From Candidatus Daviesbacteria bacterium (lineage in GTDB: Bacteria > Patescibacteriota > Microgenomatia > Daviesbacterales > UBA10151), in contig JACOXI010000005.1 of the NCBI GenBank assembly GCA_016176335.1, positions 63,391 to 127,390 of the forward strand: a DNA stretch of 64,000 nt. The letters are read 5' to 3'. A program made the position numbers and the translations under genes. Of this stretch, positions 1 to 44,088 are shown piece after piece. Within the stretch, counting starts at the first letter, position 1, and every line of letters starts with the position of its first letter. The notes under the pieces are model-generated. The model had not been told where the DNA came from. It was given only the letters and a program-made list of their open reading frames with translations, and did not search any database.

Positions 1-119
1 TCGGATTTTGGTAAATCCCTGACATGTCCCATTGAGGCTTCTATTTGATACTGGTCGCCCAAAAATTTCTGTAGTGTCCTAGCTTTAGTGGGTGATTCCA
101 CAATAACCAAATTATTCAT
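1..119 (-). CDS. topA: DNA topoisomerase I, N-terminal fragment (runs off window start)
   Basis: Reverse-strand translation from ATG at 119: [39 protein letters not shown]. This matches the Toprim N-terminus of bacterial topoisomerase I. Confidence 0.6.
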
Positions 120-26064: not shown

Positions 26065-27375
26065 ATGCACAAAACTCATCTTAAGGAAAAGCATGACCAC
26101 CAAACTTTAAAATTTCCACAAGGTTTCTTATGGGGTGCTGCAACGAGTGCCCACCAGGTTGAGGGCGGAAATATTTACAATGACTGGTGGAAGTGGGAAC
26201 AGGATAGGCCCCCCCATCTTCGTTCAGGAGCAGCCTGTGATCAATATAACCGCTACAGGGAAGATTTTGAGATGGCCAAGGATCTAAACCACAACGCCCA
26301 CAGGCTGTCAATTGAATGGTCCAGAATTGAGCCTCGCGAGGGTGAATTTAACCTTGCCGAGATTGAGCATTATGTTAAGTTACTTAAGCACCTTAAGTCA
26401 CTTAATATGACAGTCATGTTAACCCTATGGCACTTTACACTGCCTGGCTGGTTAGCGGACTGCGGCGGGTGGGAGAACTTTAAAGCCCCTTTTTACTTTG
26501 AGCGTTTTGTTAAAAAAATTGCGCCTGAACTGGGAGAATACGTAGATTTCTGGGTGACCATCAACGAGCCGGGAGTTTATATTTACGAAACTTACATTGA
26601 AAGGGTTTGGCCGCATTCCAAAAAAAGCCTGATTGGCCAGATTAAAACTTATTTAAACCTTGCCTCCGCTCATAGAAAGACTTACAGATTTCTACATTCC
26701 AAAAATGCTTTGGGCAAACCAGTCGGCATGGCCCAAAACATCATGTCATTTGAACCTTACCACAAACATTCAATCATGGAGCAGCTGGCTGTTGTTGTAA
26801 ACGATATATTCACCAATCATCTTTTTTATTTTTTAACCCGAGGCACGCACGATTTCCTGGGAATAAATTACTATTTTCATGCCCGTTTAAAACACCAAGG
26901 TTTAATACCCCAAAAGGTAGACTTTTCTCCTCCAACGCACGAGGTGTCCGATTTAGGCTGGGAAATATACCCCGAGGGTCTTTTTGATGTTTTGAGTGAC
27001 CTTTCCGATGATGTGCCTATTTATATCACCGAGTGCGGCATTGCCTCAACCAACGACGATCGGAGAAACCGCTTTCTTGTAGCCTACTTACAAGAGGTTG
27101 TGAGGGCCATAAAATCAGGTGTAAATGTCAGAGGATTTTTCTATTGGTCTTTAATTGATAATTTTGAGTGGCATTTGGGATTTACACCTAGATTTGGTCT
27201 TATTGAAGTAGATTATGAAACCCAAAAAAGGCACATTCGGCCATCCGCATTAACCTTTGCGGAAATTATTGCTGCAAACGGCATTCCTCACACTTTGATG
27301 AGGTTTTTGGGACACACAGTCACATCAGAAGAGGTTTTAAAAAGATTTCAGAAAATGGAACCACAGCATAAATAA
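26065..27375 (+). CDS. glycoside hydrolase family 1 (beta-glucosidase-like)
   Basis: 436 aa. Acid/base TINEP and nucleophile ITECGIA (ITENG-type) motifs. N-terminal FLWGAATSAHQVEG. Confidence 0.8.
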   Translation: MHKTHLKEKHDHQTLKFPQGFLWGAATSAHQVEGGNIYNDWWKWEQDRPPHLRSGAACDQYNRYREDFEMAKDLNHNAHRLSIEWSRIEPREGEFNLAEIEHYVKLLKHLKSLNMTVMLTLWHFTLPGWLADCGGWENFKAPFYFERFVKKIAPELGEYVDFWVTINEPGVYIYETYIERVWPHSKKSLIGQIKTYLNLASAHRKTYRFLHSKNALGKPVGMAQNIMSFEPYHKHSIMEQLAVVVNDIFTNHLFYFLTRGTHDFLGINYYFHARLKHQGLIPQKVDFSPPTHEVSDLGWEIYPEGLFDVLSDLSDDVPIYITECGIASTNDDRRNRFLVAYLQEVVRAIKSGVNVRGFFYWSLIDNFEWHLGFTPRFGLIEVDYETQKRHIRPSALTFAEIIAANGIPHTLMRFLGHTVTSEEVLKRFQKMEPQHK

Positions 27376-27489
27376 TGCCAAAACTCAAATGTCAAAACTT
27401 AAAACTTAAAGATTTTAGCGCGTAGCGCGAACTTGTTCAGATTTGAGTTGTAGATTTGCGATTTGAGATCTAAGATTTAAGATAAACAA
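27376..27489. repeat. same heptamer-repeat palindromic element family, centre gcgcgtagcgcg
   Basis: aaactcaaatgtcaaaacttaaaacttaaag ... tagcgcgtagcgcga ... agatttgagttgtagatttgcgatttgagatctaagatttaagat. Confidence 0.75.
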
Positions 27490-28460: not shown

Positions 28461-30854
28461 ATGCCAAAAGGACAAAGAAAAACCAATTTTAAAAACAACC
28501 CTTCTTCTCTTATCCTCCTTTTGGTTCAATTTATCCTGATAAAAATAGGCCAGGCACCTATCTGGGTGATCAAATTATTATTATCTATAGCTGTGGGAGG
28601 CTACCTCCGAGCGCGGCGAGCCCTAGACAAGCCACGTCTGACGTGGCGAGCGTATCCGAGCCATGCACCAAGCGGTGCGTGGCGCAGGACGCTAGCGTTG
28701 GCGAGCAAGAGAGTGTGGTTGCCGACCGAAGCCACAAAGAGGCAGTATCTATTCAATCAATTCTTTCATCGTCGTCGTGGCCGGCCCAGAAAATCTTCAT
28801 TTATTCCCTACTATTTAAATAAATTTAAGTTGTTTGTCAAAAGAAGGGTGCCCAAAAAAACTAAAATAGCCGTAGTTTTTGGAGTGGGTTTAATCATACT
28901 TACTCTTTACACTCAATTCATTCTTAATGCCGCAGATACCCTGCCAAACCCTGATAAACTCATCTCTCCCAGACCTGCCACCACAGAAATATTTGACAGA
29001 AATGGCAAACTTTTATACAGAATTTATGAGGGTACAAATAGAAGTCTTGTCAGAATGGATGAATTACCAAAACATTTAATTTTGGCAACTCTTGCCTCCG
29101 AAGATAAAAATTTTTACAACCATCCGGGAGTGGATCCTGTTGCCATATTCAGGGCTTTCTATCACAATTTAAGGTTTGGCAGGACCGAGGGAGCCTCCAC
29201 CATCACCCAACAACTGATCAAAAACTCTTTTCTTACTCCGGAAAAAACTTACAGTAGAAAAATCAAAGAGGTAATTTTATCTCTGTGGACAGAAACCAGA
29301 TATTCAAAAGAGGAGATTCTTAAAATGTATTTTAATGAAGCTCCATACGGAGGGCCCAACTGGGGAATTAAGGCTGCGGCCAGATCCTACTTTGGCAAGA
29401 AACCCGTAGATTTAACTCTTGCGGAAGCAGCTTTTTTGGCAGGACTTCCCGCCTCCCCCAGCCAATTTTCCCCATATGGCGTCAGAGCCGATTTGGGAAT
29501 AGCGCGTCAAAAACAGGTTTTAAAAAGGATGTTAGATGAACATTACATCACTGACGGGGAGTATACTCAAGCAATATCGGAAAAACTGACATTCAGACCC
29601 CAAAATCAAGACATCAATGCCCCTCATTTTGTGTTCTATATCAGAGATATTCTCGCTCAACGTTACGGAGAGAAAACTGTTTCCCAGGGAGGATTAAAGG
29701 TGATCACCACTTTAGATTTGGGATTGCAAAAGGAAGTTGAAAAAATTATTTCAGATGAAATTGCAAACCTTGCCGGACTTGATGTTAAAAACGGAGCAAG
29801 CATGGTTTTGGATGCAAAAGAGGGCCAGATTTTAGCCATGGTAGGATCGCGGGATTATTCTTACCCGGAATTTGGAAATTTCAATGCCACGCTCGCCCTT
29901 CGTCAACCAGGCTCTTCAATAAAACCCATAACTTATGCCACGGCTTTCAAAGAAGGTTACTTTCCGGGAAATACTATCTTGGATTCTCCTGTCACATTCC
30001 CAGATGGAGCCAGAAATTATTCACCGATAAATTATGACGGGGTGTTTCATGGACCTGTCTCCATCCGCACTGCTTTGGGTTCATCCTTAAATGTCCCTGC
30101 TGTTAAGCTTTTGGCCAGTGTGGGTATTCCCGATATGATCAAAACCGCCCAGGATTTAGGTATCACCACCTTTGATGATCCTAAACGATTTGGTCTGTCT
30201 TTAACATTGGGTGGAGGGGAAGTAAAAATGATGGAGATGATGGGAGTTTATCAAGCTTTTTCCCAGATGGGGCTTGCTCAAAAACCTACCGGCATCTTAA
30301 AAGTGACGGATTCTGTGGGCAATATATTGGAAGAATATGAATCCCAACCCAAACAGGTACTGCAACCGGAGGTGGCATATCTTATTACCAGTATACTTTC
30401 CGATAATACGGCAAGAACTCCGGCTTTCGGACCTAATTCCCTGCTACTTATCAGAGGCAATGAAGTGGCTGTAAAAACAGGCACCTCGGATAATAAAAGG
30501 GATAATTGGACTTTTGGATACACTCCTGATTTTGTGGTTGGGGTTTGGGTGGGCAATAATGACAATACTCCCATGAACCCGCAATTAACATCAGGAATAA
30601 CCGGTGCTACCCCAATTTGGAATAAGATCATAAGAGGGCTTTTGGCACAAAAACCCAGCCTCGGATTCATCAAACCCAGTGGCATCATTGAGGCGCAAAT
30701 TGACGGCAGGAGGGATCTGGCCATTTCAGGCTTCATCCCCAAAGGATTGGTCAAGGTCCGAACCCAAGATGTTCAAACCATCTATTTTGACTCTTTTTCA
30801 TCTTATGCCACTCAATCTGCCCAGGCTGCATTGGAAAGTGGAACTAGGAACTAG
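28461..30854 (+). CDS. penicillin-binding protein 1A (bifunctional GT51 glycosyltransferase / transpeptidase)
   Basis: 797 aa. GT51 motifs (ASEDKNFYNHPGVD, TITQQL). Transpeptidase SxxK (SSIK) and KTGTS. The N-terminal cytoplasmic region contains a GC-rich in-frame element. Confidence 0.85.
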   Translation: MPKGQRKTNFKNNPSSLILLLVQFILIKIGQAPIWVIKLLLSIAVGGYLRARRALDKPRLTWRAYPSHAPSGAWRRTLALASKRVWLPTEATKRQYLFNQFFHRRRGRPRKSSFIPYYLNKFKLFVKRRVPKKTKIAVVFGVGLIILTLYTQFILNAADTLPNPDKLISPRPATTEIFDRNGKLLYRIYEGTNRSLVRMDELPKHLILATLASEDKNFYNHPGVDPVAIFRAFYHNLRFGRTEGASTITQQLIKNSFLTPEKTYSRKIKEVILSLWTETRYSKEEILKMYFNEAPYGGPNWGIKAAARSYFGKKPVDLTLAEAAFLAGLPASPSQFSPYGVRADLGIARQKQVLKRMLDEHYITDGEYTQAISEKLTFRPQNQDINAPHFVFYIRDILAQRYGEKTVSQGGLKVITTLDLGLQKEVEKIISDEIANLAGLDVKNGASMVLDAKEGQILAMVGSRDYSYPEFGNFNATLALRQPGSSIKPITYATAFKEGYFPGNTILDSPVTFPDGARNYSPINYDGVFHGPVSIRTALGSSLNVPAVKLLASVGIPDMIKTAQDLGITTFDDPKRFGLSLTLGGGEVKMMEMMGVYQAFSQMGLAQKPTGILKVTDSVGNILEEYESQPKQVLQPEVAYLITSILSDNTARTPAFGPNSLLLIRGNEVAVKTGTSDNKRDNWTFGYTPDFVVGVWVGNNDNTPMNPQLTSGITGATPIWNKIIRGLLAQKPSLGFIKPSGIIEAQIDGRRDLAISGFIPKGLVKVRTQDVQTIYFDSFSSYATQSAQAALESGTRN
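28596..28735. repeat. GC-rich ~140-bp hairpin-containing element inserted in-frame in the PBP1A N-terminal coding region (homologous to 31640..31775 in nusG)
   Basis: ggaggctacctccgagcgcggcgagccctagacaagccacgtctgacgtggc...gttggcgagcaagagagtgtggttgccgaccgaagcc. Shared blocks with the nusG copy. Internal palindrome gccacgtctgacgtggc. Confidence 0.7.
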
Positions 30855-31359: not shown

Positions 31360-31554
31360 ATGAAAAAAGGAGTTAGTTTTATTAAGGAAGTTTACGAAGA
31401 GTTAGTAAAAGTGGCCTGGCCCACCAGAGAACAAACTATCCGCTACACTGTTTTGGTAATCATTGTCACTTTGGTTGTGGGAGTTTTTTTGGGAGGATTT
31501 GATTATATTTTGACAGCAATAACAGCATTTATACTAGAACACTATGGACGATGA
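31360..31554 (+). CDS. secE: preprotein translocase subunit SecE
   Basis: 64 aa. VKVAWPTREQT motif followed by a single TM. Immediately upstream of nusG. Confidence 0.7.
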   Translation: MKKGVSFIKEVYEELVKVAWPTREQTIRYTVLVIIVTLVVGVFLGGFDYILTAITAFILEHYGR

Positions 31555-32308
31555 TTTAAAACTCAAAACTCAAATGTCAAATGTCAAAGCTGGAGAGGAT
31601 CAGACAGCAAAATCTGAACCAGTTAATGATATAAGCGAAGGGAGACTGCCTCCGAACGCAGCGAGCCCTAGAGTCGCCGAAGGCGACCGTACCCGAGGCG
31701 AAGCCGAAGGCGAGCCGCAGGGCGTAAGTACCGAAGGTACAGTTGGCGAGCAAGAGAGCGGGGCGGTCGACCGATCAGGCAATCCTAACGCCAAATGGTA
31801 TGTTGTTCATACTTATTCCGGTCATGAAAACAAAGTGGCGCACACTTTAAAGCAGCGGATTGAATCCGAACATTTGGAAGAGAAAATTTTAGATGTTTTG
31901 GTGCCTATGCAGGATAAAATTGAAATAAAAGGCGGCAAAAAAGTAAGCATTAAAGAAAAAATCTTCCCCGGCTATATTTTGGTAAAAATGGTTTTGGAAG
32001 ATAGTTCCTGGCTGGCTGTCAGAACAACTCAAGGTGTCACCTCCTTTGTGGGTATGGGTAATAAACCCACCCCGATCTCCGATGCGGAGGTGGCCACCAT
32101 AGTCAAATTTACCCAAGAGGAGGCTCCTGTTTATAAGCAGGTTTTCTCTGTTTCGGATACTATCAAAATTGTGGACGGGCCTTTTGCAGATTTTATTGGT
32201 AAAGTGGATAATGTGGATGAGGAAAAAGGCAAGGTTAAGGTTTTGGTATCAATATTCGGGCGTGAAACACCAGTGGAGTTGGATTTTCTGCAGGTGCAGA
32301 AGATATGA
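31544..32308 (+). CDS. nusG: transcription termination/antitermination factor NusG with ~75-aa repeat-derived N-terminal extension
   Basis: NGN start KWYVVHTYSGHENKV and KOW C-terminus. No in-frame start codon near the NGN domain, so the extension (heptamer tract plus GC-rich element) appears to be translated. Confidence 0.85.
   Translation: MDDDLKLKTQMSNVKAGEDQTAKSEPVNDISEGRLPPNAASPRVAEGDRTRGEAEGEPQGVSTEGTVGEQESGAVDRSGNPNAKWYVVHTYSGHENKVAHTLKQRIESEHLEEKILDVLVPMQDKIEIKGGKKVSIKEKIFPGYILVKMVLEDSSWLAVRTTQGVTSFVGMGNKPTPISDAEVATIVKFTQEEAPVYKQVFSVSDTIKIVDGPFADFIGKVDNVDEEKGKVKVLVSIFGRETPVELDFLQVQKI
31640..31775. repeat. GC-rich element copy inside the nusG N-terminal extension
   Basis: gggagactgcctccgaacgcagcgagccctagagtcgccgaaggcgac...gttggcgagcaagagagcggggcggtcgaccgatcagg. 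Palindrome gtcgccgaaggcgac. Read in a different frame than the PBP1A copy. Confidence 0.7.
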
Positions 32309-32368
32309 TCGGCTCTTCGTATATCGAATATTGGTCATCCGATAAACGATAAACGATATTCCAAACAA

Positions 32369-32794
32369 ATGGCTAAAAAAGTTAAAACCTATATTAAACT
32401 AACTATCCCTGCAGGAGTAGCAACTGCAGCTCCTCCAGTGGGAACAGCCTTAGGCCCGCACGGTTTACCTATCATGGAGTTTGTCAAGGCATTTAATGAA
32501 AGAACCAAAGATAAACAGGGTACTGTTTTACCTGTGGTGATCACAGTTTATGAGGATAGAACCTTTTCTTTTATTACCAAAGAGCCTCCTGTTGCTGAAA
32601 TGATTAAAAAAGCCCTCAAGCTGGAGAAAGGCTCTGGCCAAGCCTTAAAAGAACCTGTTGGAACCCTGACAGCAACCCAAGTTGAAGAAATTGCCAAAGC
32701 CAAAATGCCTGATTTGAATGCAAATTCGGTAGAGGCTGCTATAAAAATTGTTGAAGGAACAGCCAAAAGTATGGGAGTAAAAATTAGTAGTTAG
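32369..32794 (+). CDS. rplK: 50S ribosomal protein L11
   Basis: 141 aa. Motif [19 protein letters not shown]. Confidence 0.9.
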
Positions 32795-32805
32795 TATTAA
32801 GTATT

Positions 32806-33723
32806 ATGGGCAAGACAAAAGTAGCCATCATTGATGATTCAGCGCAAGAAGAGAATAGAGAATCAAGAATAAAGAATAAAGCCTCTAAGAAAAGGGCTAA
32901 AGCGACCGAAGTGAAGTCTGATGCAGCTTCTCGACTGTTTGAGCCAGGCGAGGATGGCCAAAAGGCTCAAGCTTTGACGAGCGTGACGCCATCCGAGCCG
33001 ATTCCGCCAAAGGCGGAAGGCGAGTTGGAGAAGCAAATTCAGACGAACGAGAGAGTACAACCTAAAAAACCTCAAAAACCAGGCAAAGCTAAGCCCCGCT
33101 CCAAGAAATACCAAGAGGTCGTAAAAGATTTGGATAGAACTAAATCCTACCCTTTAGGTGAGGCTATAGAACTTAGTAAAAAACTGTCCTATTCTAAATT
33201 CACAGGTACACTTGAAGCACATATCAATACCACTCAAACAGGAATCCGTGGTTTAGCCTCCCTTCCCTATTCTTCAGGTAAAAAATTACGCATCCTGGTC
33301 TTTGGAAAAGGTGCCAAAGACGCAGGTGCAGATCTGGTGGGTGATGATTCCACCATTGAGGCTATCTCCCAGGGCAAAATTGATTTTGACCTTCTGATAA
33401 GCACTCCTGAATGGATGCCAAAGCTTGCCAAAGTGGCAAGGGTTTTGGGACCTAAGGGGCTCATGCCCAATCCCAAAAATGGCACCATCACAGACGACCT
33501 CAAAAAAGCAGTGGAAGGATTTCAAGCCGGAAAAACAGAATACAAAACAGAGGCCAAAGCAGCAGTAATCCACCTTGGGCTGGGAAAGTTGAATCAACCT
33601 ACCGAGGAGTTATCTGCCAATGTTCAAACTTTGCTTCAAACTTTAGGCAAAACCAGAGTTAAAAAAGTCACTCTTTCCCCCACCATGGGACCATCAGTTA
33701 AAGTTGATCTAGCTTCCATGTAA
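32806..33723 (+). CDS. rplA: 50S ribosomal protein L1 with ~90-aa N-terminal extension
   Basis: L1 core starts near KKYQEVVK...EAIELSKK. N-terminal Lys/Glu-rich extension carries a GC-rich stretch. Confidence 0.85.
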   Translation: MGKTKVAIIDDSAQEENRESRIKNKASKKRAKATEVKSDAASRLFEPGEDGQKAQALTSVTPSEPIPPKAEGELEKQIQTNERVQPKKPQKPGKAKPRSKKYQEVVKDLDRTKSYPLGEAIELSKKLSYSKFTGTLEAHINTTQTGIRGLASLPYSSGKKLRILVFGKGAKDAGADLVGDDSTIEAISQGKIDFDLLISTPEWMPKLAKVARVLGPKGLMPNPKNGTITDDLKKAVEGFQAGKTEYKTEAKAAVIHLGLGKLNQPTEELSANVQTLLQTLGKTRVKKVTLSPTMGPSVKVDLASM

Positions 33724-33729: not shown

Positions 33730-34317
33730 TTACCCTTGCGAATGAGTTTTGGCTATTTTCTCTATAGCTTCCTCTACATATTCTTCTATCTGTCTTGCTA
33801 ACCTTATGTGAACTTTAAGCACTGCCTGCTCGTCAGTCGGATGAACATAACCAGTTATGCCATAAAAAGGCGGTTTTAACAAAGGGGGCAAACTGTTAAT
33901 AACCCCAGAAAGCCAGGTGGCTCTGATCAAGCTATGCGGATCAGGAATCTCCTGCTCTGGGAAACCAACGTACTCCGGCAAGGTATAAACATTACCGGCC
34001 TCTCCTATTCCTGTTAAAGCTCTGACTTGCCTTACCTGGTCACGCTCAAAACATAACACCAGATCGGAATTTCCTAAAAGTTCGGCTGTTGCCCTTGTCG
34101 GTATATGGTGCTTGGGAGGTTGATATCCCAGTCTCTCCAAAGCAGAACGCATTTCATAGCTTAGATCCATAAAAGGAGGTTCAATTAAACCGGCCGACGC
34201 ACACTTAACACCAAGAAGACCTTTTTCTTCAGCCATAGCTTTAGCAATGCATTCGGCAACCGGACTTCTGCTTATATTGGCCCAGCAGACAAAGGTCACG
34301 CTGTTGATCTGTTCCAT
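33730..34317 (-). CDS. low-molecular-weight protein tyrosine phosphatase / ArsC-fold
   Basis: 195 aa. P-loop CX5R(S) motif VCWANISRSP at the N-terminus. Confidence 0.55.
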   Translation of the reverse strand: MEQINSVTFVCWANISRSPVAECIAKAMAEEKGLLGVKCASAGLIEPPFMDLSYEMRSALERLGYQPPKHHIPTRATAELLGNSDLVLCFERDQVRQVRALTGIGEAGNVYTLPEYVGFPEQEIPDPHSLIRATWLSGVINSLPPLLKPPFYGITGYVHPTDEQAVLKVHIRLARQIEEYVEEAIEKIAKTHSQG

Positions 34318-34339
34318 AAGTCCAAGTATTATAGCAGTT

Positions 34340-35323
34340 CTATTTTCTACGTAAGGCCTTCTTCAGTATCAGGTTCAAATCCAACTTTAGATTAAATATA
34401 GATATCAAACCAAGTATTATCACAAATATAGCTGTTGTTATATGCGATAAAACTACCATGGATGAAGCTACATTTACTTCAAATCCAAACACTCCGGACA
34501 AAATTAAACTTCCTGATACCTCCGCAGACCCCACATAACCTGGAGCTGCCGGAATAAGATAAGTTAAGGCAGAAAGCATCTGACCAAAATACATCGTGAG
34601 ATATCCCGGGTTAACCCCCAGTGATTGAAAGGTAAAAAACCAAATCCCCGCATCAGCCACATAAGCCAACAATGTTAAAACAATTAAAGTCATCAGATCT
34701 TTTTTGCTTCTTTTTAAAATAGAAAAAGACTCTAAAATAAATGACGTAAACCTAACAAAAGGTATCTTAATAAGATTAAATATAAATAGTGGTGTCAAAA
34801 AAACGACCAATTTTTTAGAAAAATCTAATCTGAATATTGCCAAATATGTGACCAGCAGGAATAAACAGAATACACTCGATATAATAATGATAAAATTTTT
34901 AGGCAAAGTTGTGGGGATAACAAGCAAAAAAATTGACGATGCAGCCAAAACAGTTAAAAAATCAATAAACCTGTCCATAAACACCCAAATTATTGATTTT
35001 CCAAAGCTTAACTCATATTTTGTATTAAGATATACACCTTTGCCAAAATCCCCTGCTCTAATCGGAATAAAAAAATTCAACAGTATTGCCGCACCATTTA
35101 AAAACACCAAATTCCAAAGGGGAATTTGTTTGATTTCCGAAAGGAAAACCTTCAGTCTTATTGCCCGAATGAACGGCGAGGCAAACATACAAAAAAATGC
35201 AGGAAGAAGAAAAATAAGATTGGCCTCGGATAATTTTTGCCATATTTGAGTAAGGTCAACAAATCGAGACCAAATAAAAATTAAGACTAATCCCACAATT
35301 GTATTGAAAATAATCTTTATCAT
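34340..35323 (-). CDS. polytopic membrane protein (UPF0104 / lysyl-PG-synthase-TM-like)
   Basis: 327 aa, 8 or more TM helices. Confidence 0.35.
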   Translation of the reverse strand: MIKIIFNTIVGLVLIFIWSRFVDLTQIWQKLSEANLIFLLPAFFCMFASPFIRAIRLKVFLSEIKQIPLWNLVFLNGAAILLNFFIPIRAGDFGKGVYLNTKYELSFGKSIIWVFMDRFIDFLTVLAASSIFLLVIPTTLPKNFIIIISSVFCLFLLVTYLAIFRLDFSKKLVVFLTPLFIFNLIKIPFVRFTSFILESFSILKRSKKDLMTLIVLTLLAYVADAGIWFFTFQSLGVNPGYLTMYFGQMLSALTYLIPAAPGYVGSAEVSGSLILSGVFGFEVNVASSMVVLSHITTAIFVIILGLISIFNLKLDLNLILKKALRRK

Positions 35324-35362
35324 TAGTTGCCAAACTCTCCCTTTTAAATATACACTATTAAT

Positions 35363-35436
35363 AGCTATCAGTCTTCAGCTATCAGCTTTCAGACTGAAAA
35401 ATTGTCTGACGACTGATGACTGACAGCTGACGACTA
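35363..35436. repeat. palindromic heptamer-repeat element of the ctgatag/gctatca family
   Basis: agctatcagtcttcagctatcagctttcagactgaaaaattgtctgacgactgatgactgacagctgacgac. Lies between the divergent starts of the membrane-protein and dockerin genes. Confidence 0.75.
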
Positions 35437-35442
35437 ATTACC

Positions 35443-36339
35443 ATGTTTTCTACCTTTAAGCAAAGAGTGCTTCTTATAATATATACTATTGTTATACTGT
35501 CCATCCCTGTGGGCACGTATCTTATTTCTCAATATCAAACTATCCGAAGCAGGGCGGAAGAAGCCAAGCCAACCACACCACCTGTGGAAAGAATTACACC
35601 TGTACCTGAAAGCTCTTCCAGCAGTAATCTTACCAATCTATCCGAAGCGGATTCCACTTTGGAAGATCTGTTAAAGATCACTCCCACTCCCTCACCCCAA
35701 GCAACCATAAGCCCGACAATTGCCACATCTTTCGGCCCCACTCTATCATTTAAAATCACCATTGAAGGAAGGCCAAAAGAAAAACAGGCAGGGAAAGTTT
35801 TTGTAGGGGTTTTGGAAGGTGATTTGGTGACAAACCCCAAGTTTTTATTAACCTTTTTGGCTGATGTCCCCGCGAGCGGTGAATACGGCAATCTGTCAAT
35901 TGCAGGATTAAACCCCGGCAGCAAATACACGGCGCTTTTGAAGGGCAGAGGACAAATTGCCAAAGCTTCCACATTTATTATGTCTCCTGCAGAATCTAAA
36001 TTAAACGGAGGTCAAGCCTTAAATCTTGTTTCAGGAGATTTAAATGAAGATAACATCATCAATACAGCGGATTATTCTATTGCTCAAAAAGCCTTCAACT
36101 CAACTCCAACTCAATCAAACTGGAATAAAAATGCCGATATAAATGATGATGGAGTTGTCAATATATTTGATATCTCTGTAATCATTAAAAATTTGGGCCA
36201 AGTTGGAGATTCCGGAGTTTGGGTTTCACCTATTCCAACCGCCACATCATCGGGAGCGCTGACAGAAGATTCAAATAATCTTCCTGTTGGTTCTTCTGGA
36301 GGATCAAACAATGGCTACTGGCTATGGATACCCAAGTGA
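35443..36339 (+). CDS. secreted dockerin-domain protein
   Basis: 298 aa. N-terminal TM/signal and Pro/Thr linker. C-terminal paired dockerin type-I calcium-binding repeats (DLNEDNIINTADYS... DINDDGVVNIFDIS). Confidence 0.6.
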   Translation: MFSTFKQRVLLIIYTIVILSIPVGTYLISQYQTIRSRAEEAKPTTPPVERITPVPESSSSSNLTNLSEADSTLEDLLKITPTPSPQATISPTIATSFGPTLSFKITIEGRPKEKQAGKVFVGVLEGDLVTNPKFLLTFLADVPASGEYGNLSIAGLNPGSKYTALLKGRGQIAKASTFIMSPAESKLNGGQALNLVSGDLNEDNIINTADYSIAQKAFNSTPTQSNWNKNADINDDGVVNIFDISVIIKNLGQVGDSGVWVSPIPTATSSGALTEDSNNLPVGSSGGSNNGYWLWIPK

Positions 36340-36403
36340 TATTGCAACCACACAACGCTAATTGACAAATGCAAGCCCATAGTTTATACTTATTCATTAT
36401 CAT

Positions 36404-37045
36404 ATGAGTGTTTTAGAAAAACTTGCCCGAGTCGGTCTTAGCTCCGCAATGCTTTTAACTGCATGTGATTCCGGACCTAGTACGTAAGAATCATCAATCC
36501 AACCACCGGTCAAACCGAACGCAACCGTAATAAGTCAAGCTCAAGCTACGCCAACCCCGCCATCAAAGCCTGGAGAAAGAGTTGTTTTTGAAACCCCTGA
36601 ACCAACACCTCCTTCCCTAAGACTTCCAGACCTTCACGCTTACCTTGGATATCCAACCATTATATCTATCAACGGAGAAAGCTATACAAGCTTTATGGAG
36701 AAAAGAGGATATAAAATTAATATATATGAGTCACAAATCCCATATAAAGGAACGGTTGTACCACAAGAAGGGCTAATCACTCATCTTCTACCAACAACCG
36801 ATAGTAAGATCAGCAGCTTAGGTGGAGAATATTCTCTAAAACAGGGTCATATCCAGGTTGGATTAAAATATTTTGTGGAAATTAAAAAAAGAGATGGGAC
36901 AAGAAAGGAACTTTGGGTGGCCCGATTCCTAATGGTCAGAATGGGTAATAACCCACCAGTTCTTACCTTAGGATTTAACGCCGTTGAATTTAAAGAGGGT
37001 GAAAGTGGAAAAACCAACACATATATCAACCTCCTTCCAGGATGA
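36404..37045 (+). pseudogene. lipoprotein gene interrupted by in-frame TAA (signal peptide MSVLEKLARVGLSSAMLLTAC then stop at 36485..36487, frame continues to 37045)
   Basis: Lipobox LLTAC. The same frame stays open through a Pro/Thr linker into the 116-aa ORF 36695..37045. Confidence 0.35.
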
Positions 37046-37136
37046 CTACCGGGAAATACTGAATAGTTACATGATTGGCCTATTGACAAGGAGGAAAAAG
37101 TTATTTTAAACTGAAAGTAGCAGACGGGCAAACCAA

Positions 37137-40100
37137 ATGGTTAGCCCAAAAAAATCTCTGGTGGCCATTATTGGCCTGATAGCAGTTTCCCTGTGGATTT
37201 TAATTCCCCAGTCTGCTTTTGCCACTTCAAGTAAATATTATGATTTTGGCCCATATTATGGCGGTTCTTCTGTTTTAGGTTTTTCCTTCTCCAACTTGGA
37301 AAACCTGCCTGTCCCTCAAATTGCGGATAGCCTGATGCCACCTAAAGCAGGCGGTATTTTGCCTGACAATCCTTTTTATGCTTTGGAAAAGGTGGTGGAG
37401 AATGTCCAACTTACTTTTACATTTGATCCTGTAAAAAAAGAGCAGTTGAGGCTTGATATTGCTAGCGAAAGATTATCTGAAGCTAAAACTTTAATGGATC
37501 AAGGTAAAACCCAAGCAGCCTCTCAAGCCCTGGATGATTACGGCCAGACCTTAACTGCCCTCAGCCAAAATCTAGCGGCCATTGCTCAAAGAACCGATCC
37601 TGCTGCCCAAGCTTTAGTCAACAAAGCAGAGGAGGTATCTGCTACCCAGGCAGTGGTTACTCAAGCCTTAAGTTTAACTTCTTCTCCTGCTCAAGCTGAA
37701 AGCTGGACCCAAGCCACCAACATCACCAGATACTCTCTTGACAAGGTAGCCGAGGCCAAAGGCGAACCTGCTATACCTACGGAGTTTTCTTCCAGTATCC
37801 AACAACTCAAAGAACAGGGGCTGATTTCGGAAGAAGAAAGTAATAAGTTATACAGTTTCAAAAACCGAAGCGAAGTCAGGGACGAGCTTAACAAACTCTC
37901 TTCCTCGGGCCAATTTCCTATTTCGGAAGCTGTTAGATTAGACGATGCTGTCACCAAATATTTCCCGGATGTACAGAAACAGTACCTAACTAATTTACAG
38001 GTTGTAGAATTAAAATCCTATCAAACTTTACCCCAGCCTGACAGCAAAACGGCAGAAGAGCTGAAAAAGTGGCAAGCTAATCCAGCTACCCCCCCATCAA
38101 ATGATATCAAACCATATTTGTGGTATAACCGAGCCCAGGATTTAGCCCGCGATGTTGACCTGTCGAACTTTTCACCAACCCAGCAGGGAGACTTAGTCAA
38201 ATTCTACCCTCAAGCTGTTCAAACTAACCCAACTTATTCCCCTCCGCCCAGCCCTTCTCCTGTACCAGCTGACGCCTCGCCTGCCCCCTCACCCACCTCT
38301 GCTGTTCCTGCCTCACCTACACCTTCCCCCACACCTCCTGCTGCCGAACCTTATCTGCAAGGTACAGGTGGAGCTTTGCCTGGTGAGCCTTTCTATTTTA
38401 TAAAGCAGTGGGGAGAGGGTTTAACCTATACCTTTACTTTTGATCCGGCCCAGAAAGCCAGACTGAGGATGCAGGAGGCTGAACGCCGTCTGGCTGAAGC
38501 CGAAGCACTGGCCAATGATCCCAAGAAAGCCACCTTATATGAATCTACCCTCAAAAGTTACCAGCAAACTCTCGCTGATGCTTCAAACATCGTCAAAAAT
38601 CTGAAAGATACCAAAGCATCTGAAGAGGCGGCAGCCAGATTAGAAGCTCAGGCAGCCAGACATGAGGTGGTTTTTGAAAAAGGGCTCTTGCCTCCTCCTC
38701 CTCAAAATCCCACACTGACCTCTGATGTTATCAGGACAGCGGAGGATGCCATGGACAGAAGCGCTGATGTTTTGGACCGACCGGCGCTGCCGCCTGTCTT
38801 GGCCTCTCGTCTGCAAGATCTCAAAGCCCAGGGCCTGATCCTGCCTGAAGAAGCAGAAGATTTAACCCGATCTGCTTCGCGAGAAGAGGCGCGGGAAAAA
38901 ATTAGAAAATTGGTTGAGCTTAACACTTTTCCCCCGGCTGATGCCAAAAAACTGGATGAAGCCCAAGCTGTAGTTTCCCCTGCAGACTACAATCAGCTGG
39001 TGGAGGTCAGGAAAGTTGAGGAGTTGCAAAGTTTGAGATCAGTCCAAACTGATCTGGCTCAAACTCCCACCTTAAGATCCACAGCCACCACTTTAGCCCA
39101 AAAGGAGGTGGCTTTAACTAACTCTTTTGATCCTACACTGATCAAACCAGAAGATCTAGGAGGTAAAGAAAACTTAATTAAAGCCTATGAAAGACTGACA
39201 GCGGTTCCTCGTCCTATTAATGGCGGGCAATTTGGTCCCGAAGTCACACCTGGCGCTCAACCATCAGCTACTCCCAGACCTCAAGATGCGGTTTTGTCTG
39301 CTTGTCCTGAGGGGGCTACCTTCAAACAATCTGAAGGCTGTATTTGGGCAGATAATGGCAAGCGGATTAATGATTATGACCAGTATAAATGTGAAGGCCC
39401 AAGACAATATTATTCTTTTGCTGTTAAGAAATGTGTGGCTTCTGACTCAACTCGCGGTTATCAAGAAGATGCCCAGCCAATCTGTCCAGTAGGTTATTCC
39501 TGGAACTGGCAGGCTCAAAGCTGTCAGACAGCAACAGGCGGGATTCTTCCTTTCCCCAGCCCCTCGCCTGTAGTAGACCCTATTAATGATGAGGAACGAG
39601 AGGCCAGGTCAAAGAGTTGTCCTGAGGGAGCCTCCTATCAACCGCCCAATGGCTGTGTTTGGGATAAAACTGGCAAATCAGTTTATGATCCTGAGCAATA
39701 TAGATGCGGTCGAGGTCAATACTATTCATTTGAGGAAGGGAAATGTGTTGCCTCGCCAAAAGAGGGAGAACCTTATCCCAAAAATACCACTCCAGTTTGT
39801 AAAGAAGATGGAGCTTATTGGAGTTGGAACGAAGGAAAATGTATTCAAGCTGTTTTTCCATCAGAGCAAAAAGGAGGACCGGGGGCAATTATAATTGATG
39901 AGTTTAGACCTCCTTTTATCGCTCCCAACAGTCCATTCTATATTATTAAACAAGCAGCGGAAAGAGTACAACTTGCTATAGCATTTACTGCCCCAGCCAG
40001 AGAACGAGTCAGCTTGTCTCAAGCTAAAGAAAGATTAATTGAAGCTGCGGACGCTCTAAAAAGAAATGATGAAGGAGCTGTTAAAAAAGCTTTAGACACT

Positions 40101-41801
40101 TATACTTCTATGATGCAGGATATTGTATCTGACGTATCTAAGGAACAGCTGACAGAGGGGGCCAAAATCGAAATCGGGAAGCTGTTAGCCGAGAAATCAG
40201 TTGAGCAAAACCTGCTATTGCAGAAGCTTCAAGCTTTGGCCCCAAGTGCACAAGATACGGCCATCAGTGCTGCGGTATCAGCCACCATCTTAGGGGTGGA
40301 TAAAGCAGCAGATGTTGCTGGCGAGCCGCCAATTCCAGATGAACTCAGAAGCAAAATTGAAGCTTTGCCGGAAAAGATGATCTCAGAAGAAGACAAAAAG
40401 AAACTTTTGGAGATGAAGTCTCGAGTTGAAGCCAGACTCCAAATAGGAGGCTTGGTAGCAAACGGGGCTTTAACCCAAACTGACACCAGCTTCTTAAATG
40501 AGGATTTTGATGCTGTTGATCAAAACGCCAGAATCAAGGTGGAGGAACTCAAAAAACTAGAGGAGATTGCCGATGCTGCCGAGACCAAAGATAAACTGGA
40601 AGAAAAGATAGGTAAGAACGAAGAAATTGCCCAAAAACTCCAAGACTTTGAGAAAACCTTTGAGCCGGGCAAAGAGGTACCAGCTGAAATCCGTCCTTAT
40701 ATCCGGCTAACCCGCATTAACGAGATAGCCCAAACCGTCAGACCCGATACTATCAACCTTGAAGACTTCTCAAACCGCAAGGATCTTATGTTGGCAGTAG
40801 CCACTCTACAGGAAGAATACAGGCCCACCATAGATGCTTTAAGACAAGTAGAAGACTTTAGAAGAAGAAATCCCAATGCTGCCTTGCCGCTTACTTTGGC
40901 CCGGGTTGCGGCTTTATCCGTAAGCCTTGGGGTAAGAGAAAAAGCCGGACCATGTTATCTACCAACACCCCTCTTCCCGGCCAACACCCCTTGTCCGGCG
41001 CCGGGAGCAGCCATCCCCATTAGTTCCTTTACCGGGATCGGGCCTACCATTGTTGATGAGTTTCGCCCCGGCTGGCCAGGTTCAGCATATCCGTCAGCCT
41101 ATCAAACAGGTCCTACTACCGATAAAGATGGCAATCCCTTAGTCTATGGCCAAGGGCCTCAACCAACCAGCGCCGGGGTTTGTCCTTCAGGTTCTCACTG
41201 GATGTATGATAGTGGTGGCTGGTGTATGTCAAACAGTGGCAACTACAGTTCCTCCTATTCCTACACGCCTTCTGGCACTGGTTCCGGTTACACCCCTTAT
41301 AGTCCTTATTACACTGCCCCGGGAGCGCCTCCGGCAAGCTATGGCTACCCAGGATCCGGTTCTTATTCTAACTTCATAAACACTTACTCGCCTCCAAATT
41401 ACTGGAGTCCTGCCCCCACCAATTACACTACCACCCCACCTACTGGCACGGTGCCAGGATCTGGACCCAGGCCAACTGCTCCTGGTCAGTGTCCATCAGG
41501 GTATCATTGGATGTCTGATTCCGGTGGCTGGTGTATGGCTGACGGACCAACCTATGTACCCAGCGGCTCACCATACAATTATCCGGCGGGTACAACTACC
41601 AGTGGCGTGCCGTCAGGAAGCTTGAATTGCGGCTCCCAGAGCTTTAATCCGGCTACCGGAAGGTGCAATGATGGCGCCTGCCCCGGAGGCTTTAACTGGG
41701 ACGGCTCAAGATGTGTAGCCAGCAGTCCCAGTTACTATTCTCCTAACTTAAACCGGATATTACTGGGATGGCAGAGGCTGTATTCGCACAAGCCCTACTG
41801 A
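37137..41801 (+). CDS. giant secreted modular cysteine-rich protein (N-terminal 1554 aa before frameshift)
   Basis: Signal peptide. Three ~55-aa modules (P.NPFY.L/IK...TFTFDP...A.ERL.EA). Four Cys-rich ~45-aa modules (CPEG...C.W...GK..YD...Y.C....YYSF...KCVAS). G/S/Y/T-rich tail with CPSG[SY]HWM.DSGGWCM repeats. Confidence 0.7.
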   Translation: MVSPKKSLVAIIGLIAVSLWILIPQSAFATSSKYYDFGPYYGGSSVLGFSFSNLENLPVPQIADSLMPPKAGGILPDNPFYALEKVVENVQLTFTFDPVKKEQLRLDIASERLSEAKTLMDQGKTQAASQALDDYGQTLTALSQNLAAIAQRTDPAAQALVNKAEEVSATQAVVTQALSLTSSPAQAESWTQATNITRYSLDKVAEAKGEPAIPTEFSSSIQQLKEQGLISEEESNKLYSFKNRSEVRDELNKLSSSGQFPISEAVRLDDAVTKYFPDVQKQYLTNLQVVELKSYQTLPQPDSKTAEELKKWQANPATPPSNDIKPYLWYNRAQDLARDVDLSNFSPTQQGDLVKFYPQAVQTNPTYSPPPSPSPVPADASPAPSPTSAVPASPTPSPTPPAAEPYLQGTGGALPGEPFYFIKQWGEGLTYTFTFDPAQKARLRMQEAERRLAEAEALANDPKKATLYESTLKSYQQTLADASNIVKNLKDTKASEEAAARLEAQAARHEVVFEKGLLPPPPQNPTLTSDVIRTAEDAMDRSADVLDRPALPPVLASRLQDLKAQGLILPEEAEDLTRSASREEAREKIRKLVELNTFPPADAKKLDEAQAVVSPADYNQLVEVRKVEELQSLRSVQTDLAQTPTLRSTATTLAQKEVALTNSFDPTLIKPEDLGGKENLIKAYERLTAVPRPINGGQFGPEVTPGAQPSATPRPQDAVLSACPEGATFKQSEGCIWADNGKRINDYDQYKCEGPRQYYSFAVKKCVASDSTRGYQEDAQPICPVGYSWNWQAQSCQTATGGILPFPSPSPVVDPINDEEREARSKSCPEGASYQPPNGCVWDKTGKSVYDPEQYRCGRGQYYSFEEGKCVASPKEGEPYPKNTTPVCKEDGAYWSWNEGKCIQAVFPSEQKGGPGAIIIDEFRPPFIAPNSPFYIIKQAAERVQLAIAFTAPARERVSLSQAKERLIEAADALKRNDEGAVKKALDTYTSMMQDIVSDVSKEQLTEGAKIEIGKLLAEKSVEQNLLLQKLQALAPSAQDTAISAAVSATILGVDKAADVAGEPPIPDELRSKIEALPEKMISEEDKKKLLEMKSRVEARLQIGGLVANGALTQTDTSFLNEDFDAVDQNARIKVEELKKLEEIADAAETKDKLEEKIGKNEEIAQKLQDFEKTFEPGKEVPAEIRPYIRLTRINEIAQTVRPDTINLEDFSNRKDLMLAVATLQEEYRPTIDALRQVEDFRRRNPNAALPLTLARVAALSVSLGVREKAGPCYLPTPLFPANTPCPAPGAAIPISSFTGIGPTIVDEFRPGWPGSAYPSAYQTGPTTDKDGNPLVYGQGPQPTSAGVCPSGSHWMYDSGGWCMSNSGNYSSSYSYTPSGTGSGYTPYSPYYTAPGAPPASYGYPGSGSYSNFINTYSPPNYWSPAPTNYTTTPPTGTVPGSGPRPTAPGQCPSGYHWMSDSGGWCMADGPTYVPSGSPYNYPAGTTTSGVPSGSLNCGSQSFNPATGRCNDGACPGGFNWDGSRCVASSPSYYSPNLNRILLGWQRLYSHKPY

Positions 41802-42826: not shown

Positions 42827-42827
42827 A

Positions 42828-43440: not shown

Positions 43441-44088
43441 ATGGCAGATGATCAACAAAAACAAGATCAACAATCAGAACAGCCTAAAACTGAAGAATCA
43501 ACAGAGGGAGCGAAGGCTGCCGCAGATTCTCAACTGTCAGAGGCAGGCGAGATCAGCAGCGAGAGCACAAGTTCTGACGTGCACGAGCCTGGTCGAGCTG
43601 GTGGCGAACCGCCAGCTGGCGGTGAGCCAGCCGAGTTGGAGAATCAAGGCCAGCCGAGCGACCAAAGCGCACCAGCCAAGAAAAAACCTGCTCCTAAACC
43701 AGTTTCAGCAAACTTAGAAAAGATAATTGAACAAATTGAAAAATTATCAGTTCTAGAACTGGCTGATTTAGTACATGCTTTAGAGGATAGATTTGGGGTT
43801 TCAGCATCCGCACCAGTTATGGCAGCAGGACCAGCAGCCGCCTCGCCTTCGGCGGGCGAGCCAACGGAGGAAAAAACTACTTTCAATGTGGTTTTAACAG
43901 CAGCAGGTGCCAATAAAATTGCAGTGATAAAAGCTGTCAGGGAATTAGTCCAGACTTTAGGGTTAAAAGAGGCAAAAGATTTGGTGGAGTCAGCTCCAAA
44001 ACCTGTTTTGGAATCAGTTAATAAGCAGACTGCTGAAGAGGCAAAACAGAAGCTTACGGCAGCAGGAGCGACAGTAGAACTTCAATAA
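43441..44088 (+). CDS. rplL: 50S ribosomal protein L7/L12 with ~90-aa GC-rich N-terminal extension
   Basis: L12 core from [28 protein letters not shown] to ...AAGATVELQ. Acidic/Pro-rich N-terminal extension. Confidence 0.85.

What the first reader, a model, noticed from the sequence alone, without database searches (positions are those of the whole stretch)
32900..33050. Ribosomal proteins L1 and L7/L12 carry ~90-aa GC-rich N-terminal extensions
The L1 core begins near residue 95 and the L12 core near residue 92. The preceding coding DNA (32900..33050, 43503..43680) is markedly GC-rich relative to the rest of the gene and encodes acidic, Pro- and Ala-rich low-complexity peptide. The rplA stretch shares short blocks (atccgagcc, gcgagcgt) with the PBP1A/NusG element, suggesting older, diverged insertions of the same element family into highly expressed genes.
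Basis: partly seen in the sequence, partly recalled or inferred. Interest (0 to 1): 0.6.

Follow-up and report, generated by a model that had tools for sequence, protein, structure and literature searches.

The report
Hairpin repeat inserted in ribosomal genes
The GC-rich front ends of the L1 and L7/L12 ribosomal protein genes in this Daviesbacteria (CPR) genome are two copies of a roughly 140-base hairpin-forming repeat inserted in frame, most likely translated as a floppy peptide, much like the "coding palindromes" of Rickettsia.

Summary
rplA (32806-33723, 305 aa) and rplL (43441-44088, 215 aa) carry N-terminal extensions of about 95 and 87 aa. Each holds a GC-rich stretch (0.55 and 0.63 GC; window mean 0.40).

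These stretches, 32910-33048 and 43509-43659, are two copies of one repeat, here called family B. Thirteen copies from related genomes support a three-way-junction fold: 97% of cells pair and 18 of 34 pairs show compensatory changes.

Coding copies sit in L1, L12, NusG and S16, always in the same orientation and frame. Their lengths are all equal modulo 3. Intergenic copies also exist.

The extensions keep the canonical start codons, and no usable internal start lies before either core. They are therefore most likely translated.

That element is a separate structured family (A), and the shared short blocks are at chance level.

The L1 extension is lineage-wide in Daviesbacteria. Its linker is a hotspot holding at least five element types.

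The best reading is a selfish, RPE/MITE-like coding palindrome tolerated in disordered tails. It is a new member of a known kind. Mobilisation and translation are inferred, not shown.

The parts
32806..33723 (+). rplA (ribosomal protein L1), 305 aa, with an N-terminal extension of about 95 aa
   Evidence: ORF. Pfam PF00687 4e-34 over aa 129-296. 100% identical to an NCBI Candidatus Daviesbacteria L1.
32806..32841 (+). Conserved lineage-specific N-terminal motif MGKTKVAIIDDS (consensus MGRPKxKIIDDS), marking the true start
   Evidence: 112 of 120 homologues begin MG[RK][PT][KR]. Alignment A1 shows G2, D10 and D11 conserved, with synonymous DNA changes. In L002, L004 and L040 this ATG overlaps or abuts the rplK stop.
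32910..33048 (+). Family B structured palindromic repeat, copy 1 (subtype B1), encoding L1 residues about 35-81. The outer stem pairs 32927-32936 with 33023-33033.
   Evidence: Covariance model R1, 140.8 bits. SW z=12.2 against the rplL copy. RNA fold -60.5 kcal/mol, z -4.4. Covariation.
33064..33723 (+). Conserved L1 core (KKPQKPGKAKPRSKKYQ onward)
   Evidence: Invariant columns start at K96, and K88 and K94 are nearly invariant.
43441..44088 (+). rplL (ribosomal protein L7/L12), 215 aa, with an 87-aa N-terminal extension
   Evidence: ORF. Pfam L12_N over aa 93-134 and L12 C-terminal domain over aa 148-215. The ATG GCA start is shared with relatives that have an SD, GGAGGTG, upstream of it.
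43509..43659 (+). Family B structured palindromic repeat, copy 2 (subtype B2), encoding L12 residues about 24-73
   Evidence: Covariance model R1, 143.2 bits. The orthologous copy in L038 scores 140.9 bits and was not in the training set.
43702..44088 (+). Conserved L12 core (VSANLEKII onward)
   Evidence: Alignment A5. In L037 the protein starts [11 protein letters not shown] with no extension.
31632..31784 (+). Family A repeat in the nusG N-terminal extension. A different family from B, listed for context.
   Evidence: nhmmer 5e-42. SW z=19.9 against the PBP1A copy. 27 predicted pairs, 12 with compensatory changes.
28587..28739 (+). Family A repeat in the N-terminal region of PBP1A, read in a different frame from the nusG copy
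   Evidence: nhmmer 1e-32. Translations GGYLRARRALDK (PBP1A) versus EGRLPPNAASPR (nusG) come from the same DNA motif.

Best explanation
The GC-rich parts of the L1 and L12 extensions are two copies of a 139-151-nt imperfect palindrome, family B. It folds on the sense strand into a three-way junction closed by a terminal inverted repeat, (G/C/A)TTCTC(G/A)ACT ... AGTTGGAGAA(C/G/T).

It behaves as a low-copy, non-autonomous selfish repeat of the RPE/MITE type. It has landed in, or been copied between, intergenic DNA and the disordered terminal tails of a few highly expressed genes of the translation and transcription machinery: L1, L12, NusG and S16.

Only insertions in the one forward frame that lacks stop codons survive. 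The element is then translated as a hydrophilic spacer of about 50 aa between the gene's own start and its conserved core.

The peptide sequence itself is not selected; subtypes B1 and B2 read the same DNA in different frames in the middle. The hairpin is conserved in the propagating lineage, presumably because copying or mobilisation needs it. Individual copies later decay or are overwritten by gene conversion.

Shown: the repeat family, its structure and covariation, in-frame placement, conservation of the start codons, and polymorphism among relatives.

Inferred: translation, selfish mobility, the mechanism of mobilisation, and neutrality of the peptide.
For: Repeat family:
- rplA and rplL copies align with SW z=12.2.
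- Eight further true copies came from pattern scans of genome and metagenome collections. Three more (L002 and L039 in rplA, L038 in rplL) were found in loci fetched through L1 and L12 homologues; L038 and L039 are orthologous to the window copies.
- No other copy exists in the window even with search filters off.

Structure:
- RNAalifold predicts 34 pairs, 18 with double compensatory changes.
- 97.3% of cells pair against 83.4% in shuffles (0 of 500 reach it). Sliding the partner by 1-3 columns drops pairing to 24-47%.
- G-U pairs are frequent, for example 8 of 11 at one pair, so the fold is specific to the sense strand.

Context:
- Coding copies are in L1 (window, L002, L023, L039), L12 (window, L038), NusG (L007, P0241) and the S16 C-terminal tail (L005, L033, P0242).
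- Intergenic copies lie between recF and an MFS transporter gene (L008, L009); two further copies are overlapped by no ORF long enough to be a gene and are read as intergenic (L018, L025).

Frame:
- All 9 coding DNA copies share orientation and frame. The TTCTC-to-GAGTTGGAGAA distance is 94, 97 or 106, all equal to 1 modulo 3. Intergenic copies measure 92, 94, 96 and 97.
- The host frame has no stop codon in any coding copy, while the other forward frames carry 0-8, usually at least one.
- B1 and B2 peptides differ through a 1-nt indel plus a compensating 2-nt indel.

Start codons:
- The L1 N-terminal motif is conserved in 112 of 120 homologues.
- The rplL ATG GCA follows the same SD in L038 (with extension) and L037 (without). 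The 255-nt extension is an exact in-frame indel after codon 2.

Turnover:
- L1 linker length ranges 40-119 aa and L12 pre-core length 2-98 aa. At least five insert types are scattered over the L1 core tree. Near-identical cores P0059 and P0103 carry different inserts.
- Decayed copies lacking the 3' arm exist: P0003, P0007, P0016, P0123, P0125.

Precedent: Rickettsia palindromic elements insert in frame in many genes (PMC10969869; PMC6649704).
Against: - No transposase or other mobilising gene was found. None appeared among 30 large ORFs of the window, and no longer element with the same termini occurs in 200 kb of related DNA.
- Target-site duplication is unresolved. A GCGA(G)-like direct repeat flanks most copies but is the same at all sites.
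- Copy number is low and the set of host sites is small and recurrent: four genes plus one spacer. That fits a randomly transposing element poorly. It could instead reflect site preference, gene conversion between tails, or a function.
- Translation is not shown directly; there is no proteomic evidence.
- The AlphaFold model was too poor to say anything about the extension (pLDDT 48).
Confidence: 0.75

Rival explanations
1. The element is a functional cis-acting structured RNA embedded in the coding regions of mRNAs for translation and transcription proteins (L1, L12, S16, NusG). It could be a common binding site or processing signal that co-regulates these genes. On this view the hairpin, not mobility, is what selection maintains.
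For: Covariation is very strong, with G-U pairs specific to the sense strand. All coding copies lie in the sense orientation. The host set is restricted to four genes of the expression machinery, both in an unbiased DNA pattern scan and in a scan of 1.84 billion representative proteins. A compensatory change is seen between the near-orthologous window and L039 copies.
Against: Close relatives differ in presence or absence of the element, and some lack the whole extension. Decayed copies have lost the 3' arm of the closing stem. Unrelated element families occupy the same linker in other genomes. The intergenic copies lie antisense to both flanking genes. No Rfam family matches. The L039 'compensatory' ends match the window's rplL copy, so gene conversion explains them.
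Confidence: 0.12
2. The extensions are not translated, or only partly. Translation of L1 and L12 would start at the TTG inside the element (33025 and 43636, GAG TTG GAG), which is preceded by a purine-rich GGAAGG/GAGGAAG stretch. The upstream ORF would then be open only by chance in GC-rich DNA.
For: An in-frame TTG with an upstream SD-like GGAAG(G/C) is part of the conserved element, in coding and intergenic copies alike. GC-rich DNA has few stop codons, and even one intergenic copy is open in this frame.
Against: The TTG and the purine stretch are locked in the closing stem and the 3' hairpin. Most genes in the window have no SD at all, so an SD-like match carries little weight. The upstream motifs MGRPKxKIIDDS and MADDQ are conserved as protein, with synonymous changes, and stay in frame with the core across linkers of 40-119 aa. 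The upstream ATGs are the canonical coupled starts, abutting the rplK stop or following the rplJ-embedded SD. Coding-copy lengths are all equal modulo 3, including the part upstream of the TTG. The S16 copies sit in a C-terminal tail, where an internal start is irrelevant.
Confidence: 0.06
3. There is no transposition. The similarity between tails arises from recombination or gene conversion of a low-complexity linker cassette between neighbouring genes of the nusG-rplKAJL region, and the palindromic look is incidental.
For: nusG, rplA and rplL lie within 12 kb of each other. The L039 rplA copy is a mosaic of a B1 interior with ends like the window's rplL copy. Copy number is low.
Against: Copies also occur in rpsP and in a recF-MFS spacer, outside that gene cluster. 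The covariation statistics are far beyond incidental. A second, unrelated family (A) behaves the same way and occurs in both orientations in PBP1A.
Confidence: 0.07

Closest known systems
Rickettsia palindromic elements (RPE-1 to RPE-10; Ogata et al. 2000 and 2002, as summarised in PMC10969869 and PMC6649704)
   Same: About 100-150-bp palindromic repeats found both between genes and inside ORFs. They insert in frame, are translated as an extra peptide compatible with protein function, have no transposase of their own, and lose repeat identity over time.
   Different: No sequence relation is expected or seen, and the phylum differs (Patescibacteria/CPR). Family B is markedly GC-rich in a 40% GC genome. 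Its copy number is low. Its hosts are confined to terminal disordered tails of L1, L12, NusG and S16, rather than many metabolic enzymes.
Bacterial MITEs (Correia/CREE, ERIC, BOX/RUP, Nezha, QMITE1; review PMC10969869)
   Same: Small, non-autonomous, with terminal inverted repeats and a stable hairpin. Occasional in-frame fusions with host ORFs are known.
   Different: No variable target-site duplication is demonstrated and no cognate IS element is known. The internal stems covary rather than being conserved in sequence.
GC clusters of yeast mitochondrial DNA, including in-frame clusters in the VAR1 ribosomal protein gene (own knowledge, not checked here)
   Same: GC-rich palindromic mobile clusters in an AT-rich genome, tolerated in frame in a ribosomal protein gene and polymorphic between strains.
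   Different: An organellar system with shorter elements (about 30-50 bp) and unrelated sequence.
REP/BIME elements with RAYT (HUH/Y1) transposases, and IS200/IS605 PATEs (PMC3733652 for REPs; mechanism from own knowledge)
   Same: Hairpin-dependent and strand-specific. This is a plausible model for how a sense-strand hairpin could be mobilised as single-stranded DNA.
   Different: REPs are 20-40 bp, extragenic and high-copy, with GTAG or CGTC tags. No RAYT or TnpA gene was found here.
Coding palindromes in Nematomorpha mitochondrial genes (PMC6649704)
   Same: Long hairpins within protein-coding sequence that are translated.
   Different: Those are perfect inverted repeats that arise in situ and encode both arms. 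They are not an interspersed repeat family.

Membership tests
RPE-like coding palindromic repeat (functional class) | Interspersed repeat of about 100-150 bp with an imperfect palindromic, hairpin-forming sequence | tested here: met
   13 copies of 137-151 nt. 34 predicted pairs with 97% of cells paired.
RPE-like coding palindromic repeat (functional class) | Copies both in intergenic DNA and inside unrelated ORFs, in frame | tested here: met
   Copies in L1, L12, NusG and S16, plus copies in or assigned to intergenic DNA (recF-MFS spacer in L008 and L009). Coding-copy lengths are all equal modulo 3.
RPE-like coding palindromic repeat (functional class) | The inserted peptide is translated and compatible with protein function | not testable with these tools
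   Only indirect support: canonical start codons are kept, the frame is kept, and the location is in low-hydrophobicity terminal tails. No proteomics.
Rickettsia RPE families proper (RPE-1..10) | Sequence homology to a Rickettsia RPE consensus | not tested
   No RPE consensus was available in the tools. Rfam has no matching family. Membership is not claimed.
MITE | Terminal inverted repeats | tested here: met
   TTCTC(G/A)ACT pairs with AGTTGGAGAA in all 11 aligned copies. The adjacent pair covaries as G-C, C-G or A-T.
MITE | Target-site duplication that differs between insertion sites | tested here: inconclusive
   GCGA(G)/GAGCGA direct repeats flank most copies but are the same at all sites. 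No filled/empty pair with clean boundaries was obtained.
MITE | A cognate autonomous IS element or transposase sharing the termini | tested here: not met
   No transposase among 30 large window ORFs. No distant TIR pairs in 200 kb of related loci. No hits in phage or plasmid collections. The search space was small, so this is weak negative evidence.
PBP1A/NusG element (family A of this window) | Detectable sequence or profile similarity to the family A consensus | tested here: not met
   SW z 0.6-0.9. The nhmmer family A profile finds no family B copy at E<=100; the reverse search gives one E=0.41 hit that lies beside, not within, a family A copy. Model R1 scores the PBP1A copy at 9.2 bits, E=2.1, and does not list the nusG copy.
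Known structured RNA families (Rfam 15) | Covariance-model match at or near the gathering score | tested here: not met
   Only tRNAs reach the gathering score. At E<=5 nothing overlaps the elements.

The most novel reading that the evidence does not exclude
Families A and B, and the other insert types seen in Daviesbacteria L1, L12 and NusG linkers, could be strand-specific hairpin elements that are copied as single-stranded DNA or RNA. They would preferentially enter the exposed sense strand of the most highly transcribed genes. That would make the terminal tails of ribosomal proteins and NusG a lineage-wide landing zone, which continuously reshapes the CPR ribosome surface. The conserved three-way-junction RNA might also have been co-opted to co-regulate these mRNAs.
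Probability: 0.15. Interest if true: 0.75.

Novelty: new member of a known kind. Interest (0 to 1): 0.55.

Why it matters
In-frame 'coding palindromes' have been treated as a peculiarity of Rickettsia and a few organelles. This finding shows the same phenomenon in a Candidate Phyla Radiation lineage, inside core ribosomal protein genes and nusG.

The covariation is clean enough to define a new structured repeat family. It also explains why Daviesbacteria L1, L12, NusG and S16 are 30-70% longer than usual, and why their lengths vary so much between close relatives.

That matters in several practical ways:
- annotation, because start-codon calls are affected;
- phylogenomics, because these are marker genes and the linkers are non-homologous repeat DNA that should be masked;
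- ideas about how disordered ribosomal extensions arise.

It also offers a tractable case of conflict between DNA/RNA-level and protein-level constraints.

Tried and rejected
- A profile search of 5.8 billion proteins with a 9-peptide alignment of family B found nothing at E<=1.
- A single-peptide scan of 1.84 billion representatives gave only two hits, one NusG and one S16.
- The exact-pattern scans returned mostly chance matches: 1 of 5 in genomes, 23 of 27 in metagenomes, and 1 of 1 in viral contigs. True and chance hits were separated by SW score (>95 versus <40) and by the covariance model.
- Homology between families A and B was rejected. The shared ATCCGAGCC lies in a hypervariable stem and is specific to one copy.
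- Splicing or excision at the RNA level was considered and rejected. Coding copies keep their length modulo 3 while intergenic ones do not, which would be unnecessary if the element were removed.
- An assembly artefact was rejected, because the same in-frame copies occur in independent assemblies.
- The AlphaFold model of L1 with 28 sequences was too poor to use (pLDDT 48).
- blastn against the phage and plasmid collections found nothing.
- Literature searches for a prior description in CPR/Patescibacteria found nothing.
- The Ogata 2002 paper on RPEs is not held in the library.

Full report
**Setting**

The window is from a Candidatus Daviesbacteria genome (Microgenomates, CPR/Patescibacteria). 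Its L1 and L12 proteins are 100% identical to NCBI entries of that name. The region reads PBP1A (28461-30854), secE, nusG (31544-32308), rplK (32369-32794) and rplA (32806-33723). About 9 kb of other genes follow, then rplJ (42828-43364) and rplL (43441-44088). The same split of rplKA from rplJL is seen in related contigs.

**Observation check**

L1 is 305 aa and L12 is 215 aa. The usual lengths, from my own knowledge, are about 230 and 125 aa.

Pfam domains start at aa 129 (L1) and aa 93 (L12). The blocks conserved among homologues start at about K87-K96 in L1 and at V88 in L12.

The flagged DNA is GC-rich. 32900-33050 is 0.556 GC and 43503-43680 is 0.629. The window mean for 150-nt windows is 0.404 (sd 0.064), and the rest of each gene is 0.43-0.44.

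The L12 extension is acidic and rich in Pro and Ala, with only 6% hydrophobic residues. The L1 extension as a whole is Lys-rich, and only its GC-rich part is acidic.

The observation therefore stands. One detail is wrong: GCGAGCGT is not present in rplA.

**What the GC-rich stretches are**

Local alignment with shuffling shows two separate repeat families in the window:
- rplA against rplL gives z=12.2. I call this family B.
- PBP1A against nusG gives z=19.9. I call this family A.
- All cross-comparisons between A and B give z<1.

Profile searches (nhmmer) and a covariance model confirm that A and B do not detect each other. The only cross-hit (E=0.41) lies beside, not within, a family A copy. 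The single shared 9-mer, ATCCGAGCC, lies in a stem of family B whose sequence differs in every copy. It is a copy-specific coincidence.

Exact-pattern scans with the conserved ends of family B recovered eight more true copies. They were cleanly separated from chance matches by alignment score. Three more copies were found in loci fetched through L1 and L12 homologues (L002, L038, L039); L038 and L039 are orthologous to the window copies.

Contexts of the copies found outside the window:
- the L1 N-terminal linker (L002, L023, L039);
- the L12 N-terminal linker (L038);
- the NusG N-terminal extension (L007);
- the C-terminal tail of ribosomal protein S16 (L005, L033);
- the spacer between recF and an MFS transporter gene (L008, L009), and two further copies that no gene-length ORF overlaps (L018, L025).

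A phmmer scan of 1.84 billion representative proteins with the rplL peptide found only one more NusG and one more S16.

In the 64-kb window there are exactly two family B copies, at 32910-33048 and 43509-43659. This holds even with search filters off.

**Structure**

The 11-copy alignment (A8) gives a consensus three-way junction of 34 pairs. It has an outer stem and a closing inverted repeat, TTCTC(G/A)ACT with AGTTGGAGAA. It also has one long arm with a variable stem and a conserved apical stem, and one short 3' hairpin.

Eighteen pairs show changes on both sides that keep pairing. Overall 97.3% of cells pair, against 83.4% in column shuffles (0 of 500 reach the observed value). When partners are slid by 1-3 columns, pairing falls to 24-47%.

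Examples read directly from the alignment:
- the base next to the closing stem is G-C, C-G or A-T in different copies;
- the arm stem reads GGATGGC/GCCATCC, GATTAAC/GTTAATC, AAAATGC/GCATTTT, GATTCG/CGAATC or GGTCAG/CTGACC;
- the 3' hairpin reads TTCCGCC/GGCGGAA, TCCCGCC/GGCGGGA or TCCGGC/GCCGGA.

Frequent G-U pairs mean the fold belongs to the sense strand. Single copies fold at -57 to -68 kcal/mol, with z-scores from -1.5 to -4.4.

Family A shows the same style: 27 pairs, 12 of them with compensatory changes. No Rfam family matches either element.

**Are the extensions translated?**

Several independent lines say yes.

1. The start of L1 is a conserved peptide motif, MG(R/K)(P/T)(K/R)xKIIDDS. 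It is present in 112 of 120 homologues and varies by synonymous changes at the DNA level. It stays in frame with the core across linkers of 40-119 aa.

2. In relatives the rplA ATG overlaps or abuts the rplK stop.

3. In L037, L038 and L040 the rplL ATG GCA lies 2-4 nt after the rplJ stop and follows an SD (GGAGGTG) embedded in the end of rplJ. L037, with 94% core identity, goes straight from ATG GCA G into TT TCA GCC (MAVSAN...). L038 has 255 extra in-frame bases at exactly that point, including the family B copy.

4. No in-frame ATG, GTG or TTG lies between the element and either core. The only candidate is a TTG within the element's closing stem.

5. All nine coding DNA copies share orientation and frame, and three different lengths (94, 97 and 106 nt between fixed anchors) are all equal modulo 3. 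The four intergenic copies measure 92, 94, 96 and 97. The host frame has no stop codon in any coding copy, whereas the other two forward frames usually do.

6. Subtypes B1 (QKAQALTSVTPSEP) and B2 ([10 protein letters not shown]) are the same DNA read in different frames. A 1-nt indel and a compensating 2-nt indel separate them. What is preserved is an open frame, not a peptide.

Direct proof by proteomics is lacking.

**Lineage-wide or genome-specific?**

Both. The L1 extension (motif plus Lys-rich linker) is lineage-wide, and the shortest forms still have about 40 residues before RSKKY.

L12 extensions range continuously from 2 to 98 residues. They are dispensable, as L037 shows.

Family B occupies the L1 linker in about 13 of 120 homologues. 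In L12 it occurs only in this genome, its close relative P0122, and two decayed cases.

Other homologues carry different inserts at the same place:
- family A (for example P0013; DNA confirmed in L001, L040 and L041);
- a type with GAKQTSSE;
- a type with IASSQ..PRND;
- a type with VIPS.

On a neighbour-joining tree of the L1 core, insert types are scattered. Near-identical cores (P0059 and P0103) carry different inserts. That tree is poorly resolved and is used only qualitatively.

Decayed family B copies that have lost the 3' arm exist (P0003, P0007, P0016, P0123, P0125).

The window and L039 rplA copies are 93% identical. The L039 outer ends match the window's rplL copy, which suggests gene conversion between copies.

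Family A occurs in two reading frames (nusG versus PBP1A). In L001 PBP1A it lies in the reverse orientation.

**Mechanism**

The most economical reading is a selfish, non-autonomous palindromic repeat of the RPE/MITE kind. Its hairpin is needed for propagation, which accounts for the covariation among copies sampled from the active lineage.

Insertions survive only where an extra hydrophilic peptide of about 50 aa is harmless, namely the disordered terminal tails of abundant proteins, and only in the stop-free frame.

How it is mobilised is unknown:
- no transposase was found among 30 large ORFs in the window;
- no longer element with the same termini occurs in 200 kb of related DNA;
- the phage and plasmid collections give no hit;
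- flanking GCGA(G) direct repeats are seen, but they are identical at all sites, so target duplication is unresolved.

The strand-specific fold, the uniform sense orientation in coding copies and the bias to highly expressed genes are compatible with a single-stranded DNA (HUH-type) or transcription-linked mechanism. This is speculation.

The main rival is a functional structured RNA shared by these mRNAs. The small recurrent host set and the covariation favour it. Polymorphism, decay, replacement by unrelated elements and the antisense intergenic copies count against it.

**Comparison with known systems**

The closest analogue is the Rickettsia palindromic element, a palindromic repeat of about 150 bp inserted in frame in many ORFs (PMC10969869; PMC6649704). 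I do not claim family membership: there is no sequence relation, and the phylum, base composition and host set all differ.

It meets the MITE criteria of size and terminal inverted repeats. It does not yet meet those of target-site duplication or a cognate transposase.

Literature searches found no description of such elements in CPR/Patescibacteria.

**Verdict**

The finding is real. This is a new member of a known kind, of moderate interest.

Noticed in passing
window 27366-27486, 53523-53605, 56202-56334, 61085-61246; also 32317-32365, 42747-42806, 43362-43434: AT-rich repeat arrays with a period of about 7 nt (CTCAAATGTCAAAAC, GATAAACGATAAAC and their complements) fill many intergenic spacers, often as inverted pairs. 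The GATAAAC type lies directly upstream of the rplK, rplJ and rplL start codons. In the window it separates rplL from the rplJ-embedded SD that relatives use.
   Followed up: partly
window 31551-31604 and 32841-32882: The AT-rich repeats run into coding DNA. nusG codons 3-16 match the CTCAAATGTCAAA family. rplA codons 12-26 (AQEENRESRIKNK) are 81% complementary to an intergenic repeat at 46077-46118. The L1 extension therefore contains material from two different repeat families.
   Followed up: partly
window 33730-42800: rplK-rplA and rplJ-rplL are split by about 9 kb. The inserted genes are a phosphatase-like gene, an LPG_synthase_TM gene, a dockerin protein and a 1554-aa DUF5667-type giant protein. 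The same split is conserved in related Daviesbacteria contigs L004 and L040.
   Followed up: partly
window 42633-42835: A sub-threshold Rfam match to the ribosomal protein L10 leader lies upstream of rplJ (35 bits against a gathering score of 44; E=0.014). It overlaps a copy of another repeat (see the next item).
   Followed up: no
window 42660-42700, 44568-44608, 61176-61216: A further interspersed repeat, GTCATCCTGAGC...GTCGAAGGAT. It is not related to families A or B.
   Followed up: no
window 41164-42443: Four copies of a Cys-containing module, CPSG(S/Y)HWMxDxGGWCM, span the end of the 1554-aa ORF (37137-41801) and the following ORF (41875-42588). This suggests one gene split by a frameshift, or a recent duplication.
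   Followed up: no
L001 2558-2686 versus window 28587-28739: The family A element in the N-terminal region of PBP1A is in the opposite orientation in a related genome. This points to independent insertion or to inversion of the palindrome at the same site.
   Followed up: partly
L005, L007, L009: Contigs titled 'uncultured Gammaproteobacteria bacterium (binchicken)' carry Daviesbacteria-like NusG and S16 genes and family B copies. The MAG taxonomy labels are probably wrong.
   Followed up: no
L040 8600-9550 (NusG, 316 aa): NusG of a relative carries two or three different inserted elements in tandem in its N-terminal extension (VIPSNSEESQDL..., VIASEARANALKQS...PRNDE). This shows that such elements accumulate serially in one tail.
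   Followed up: no
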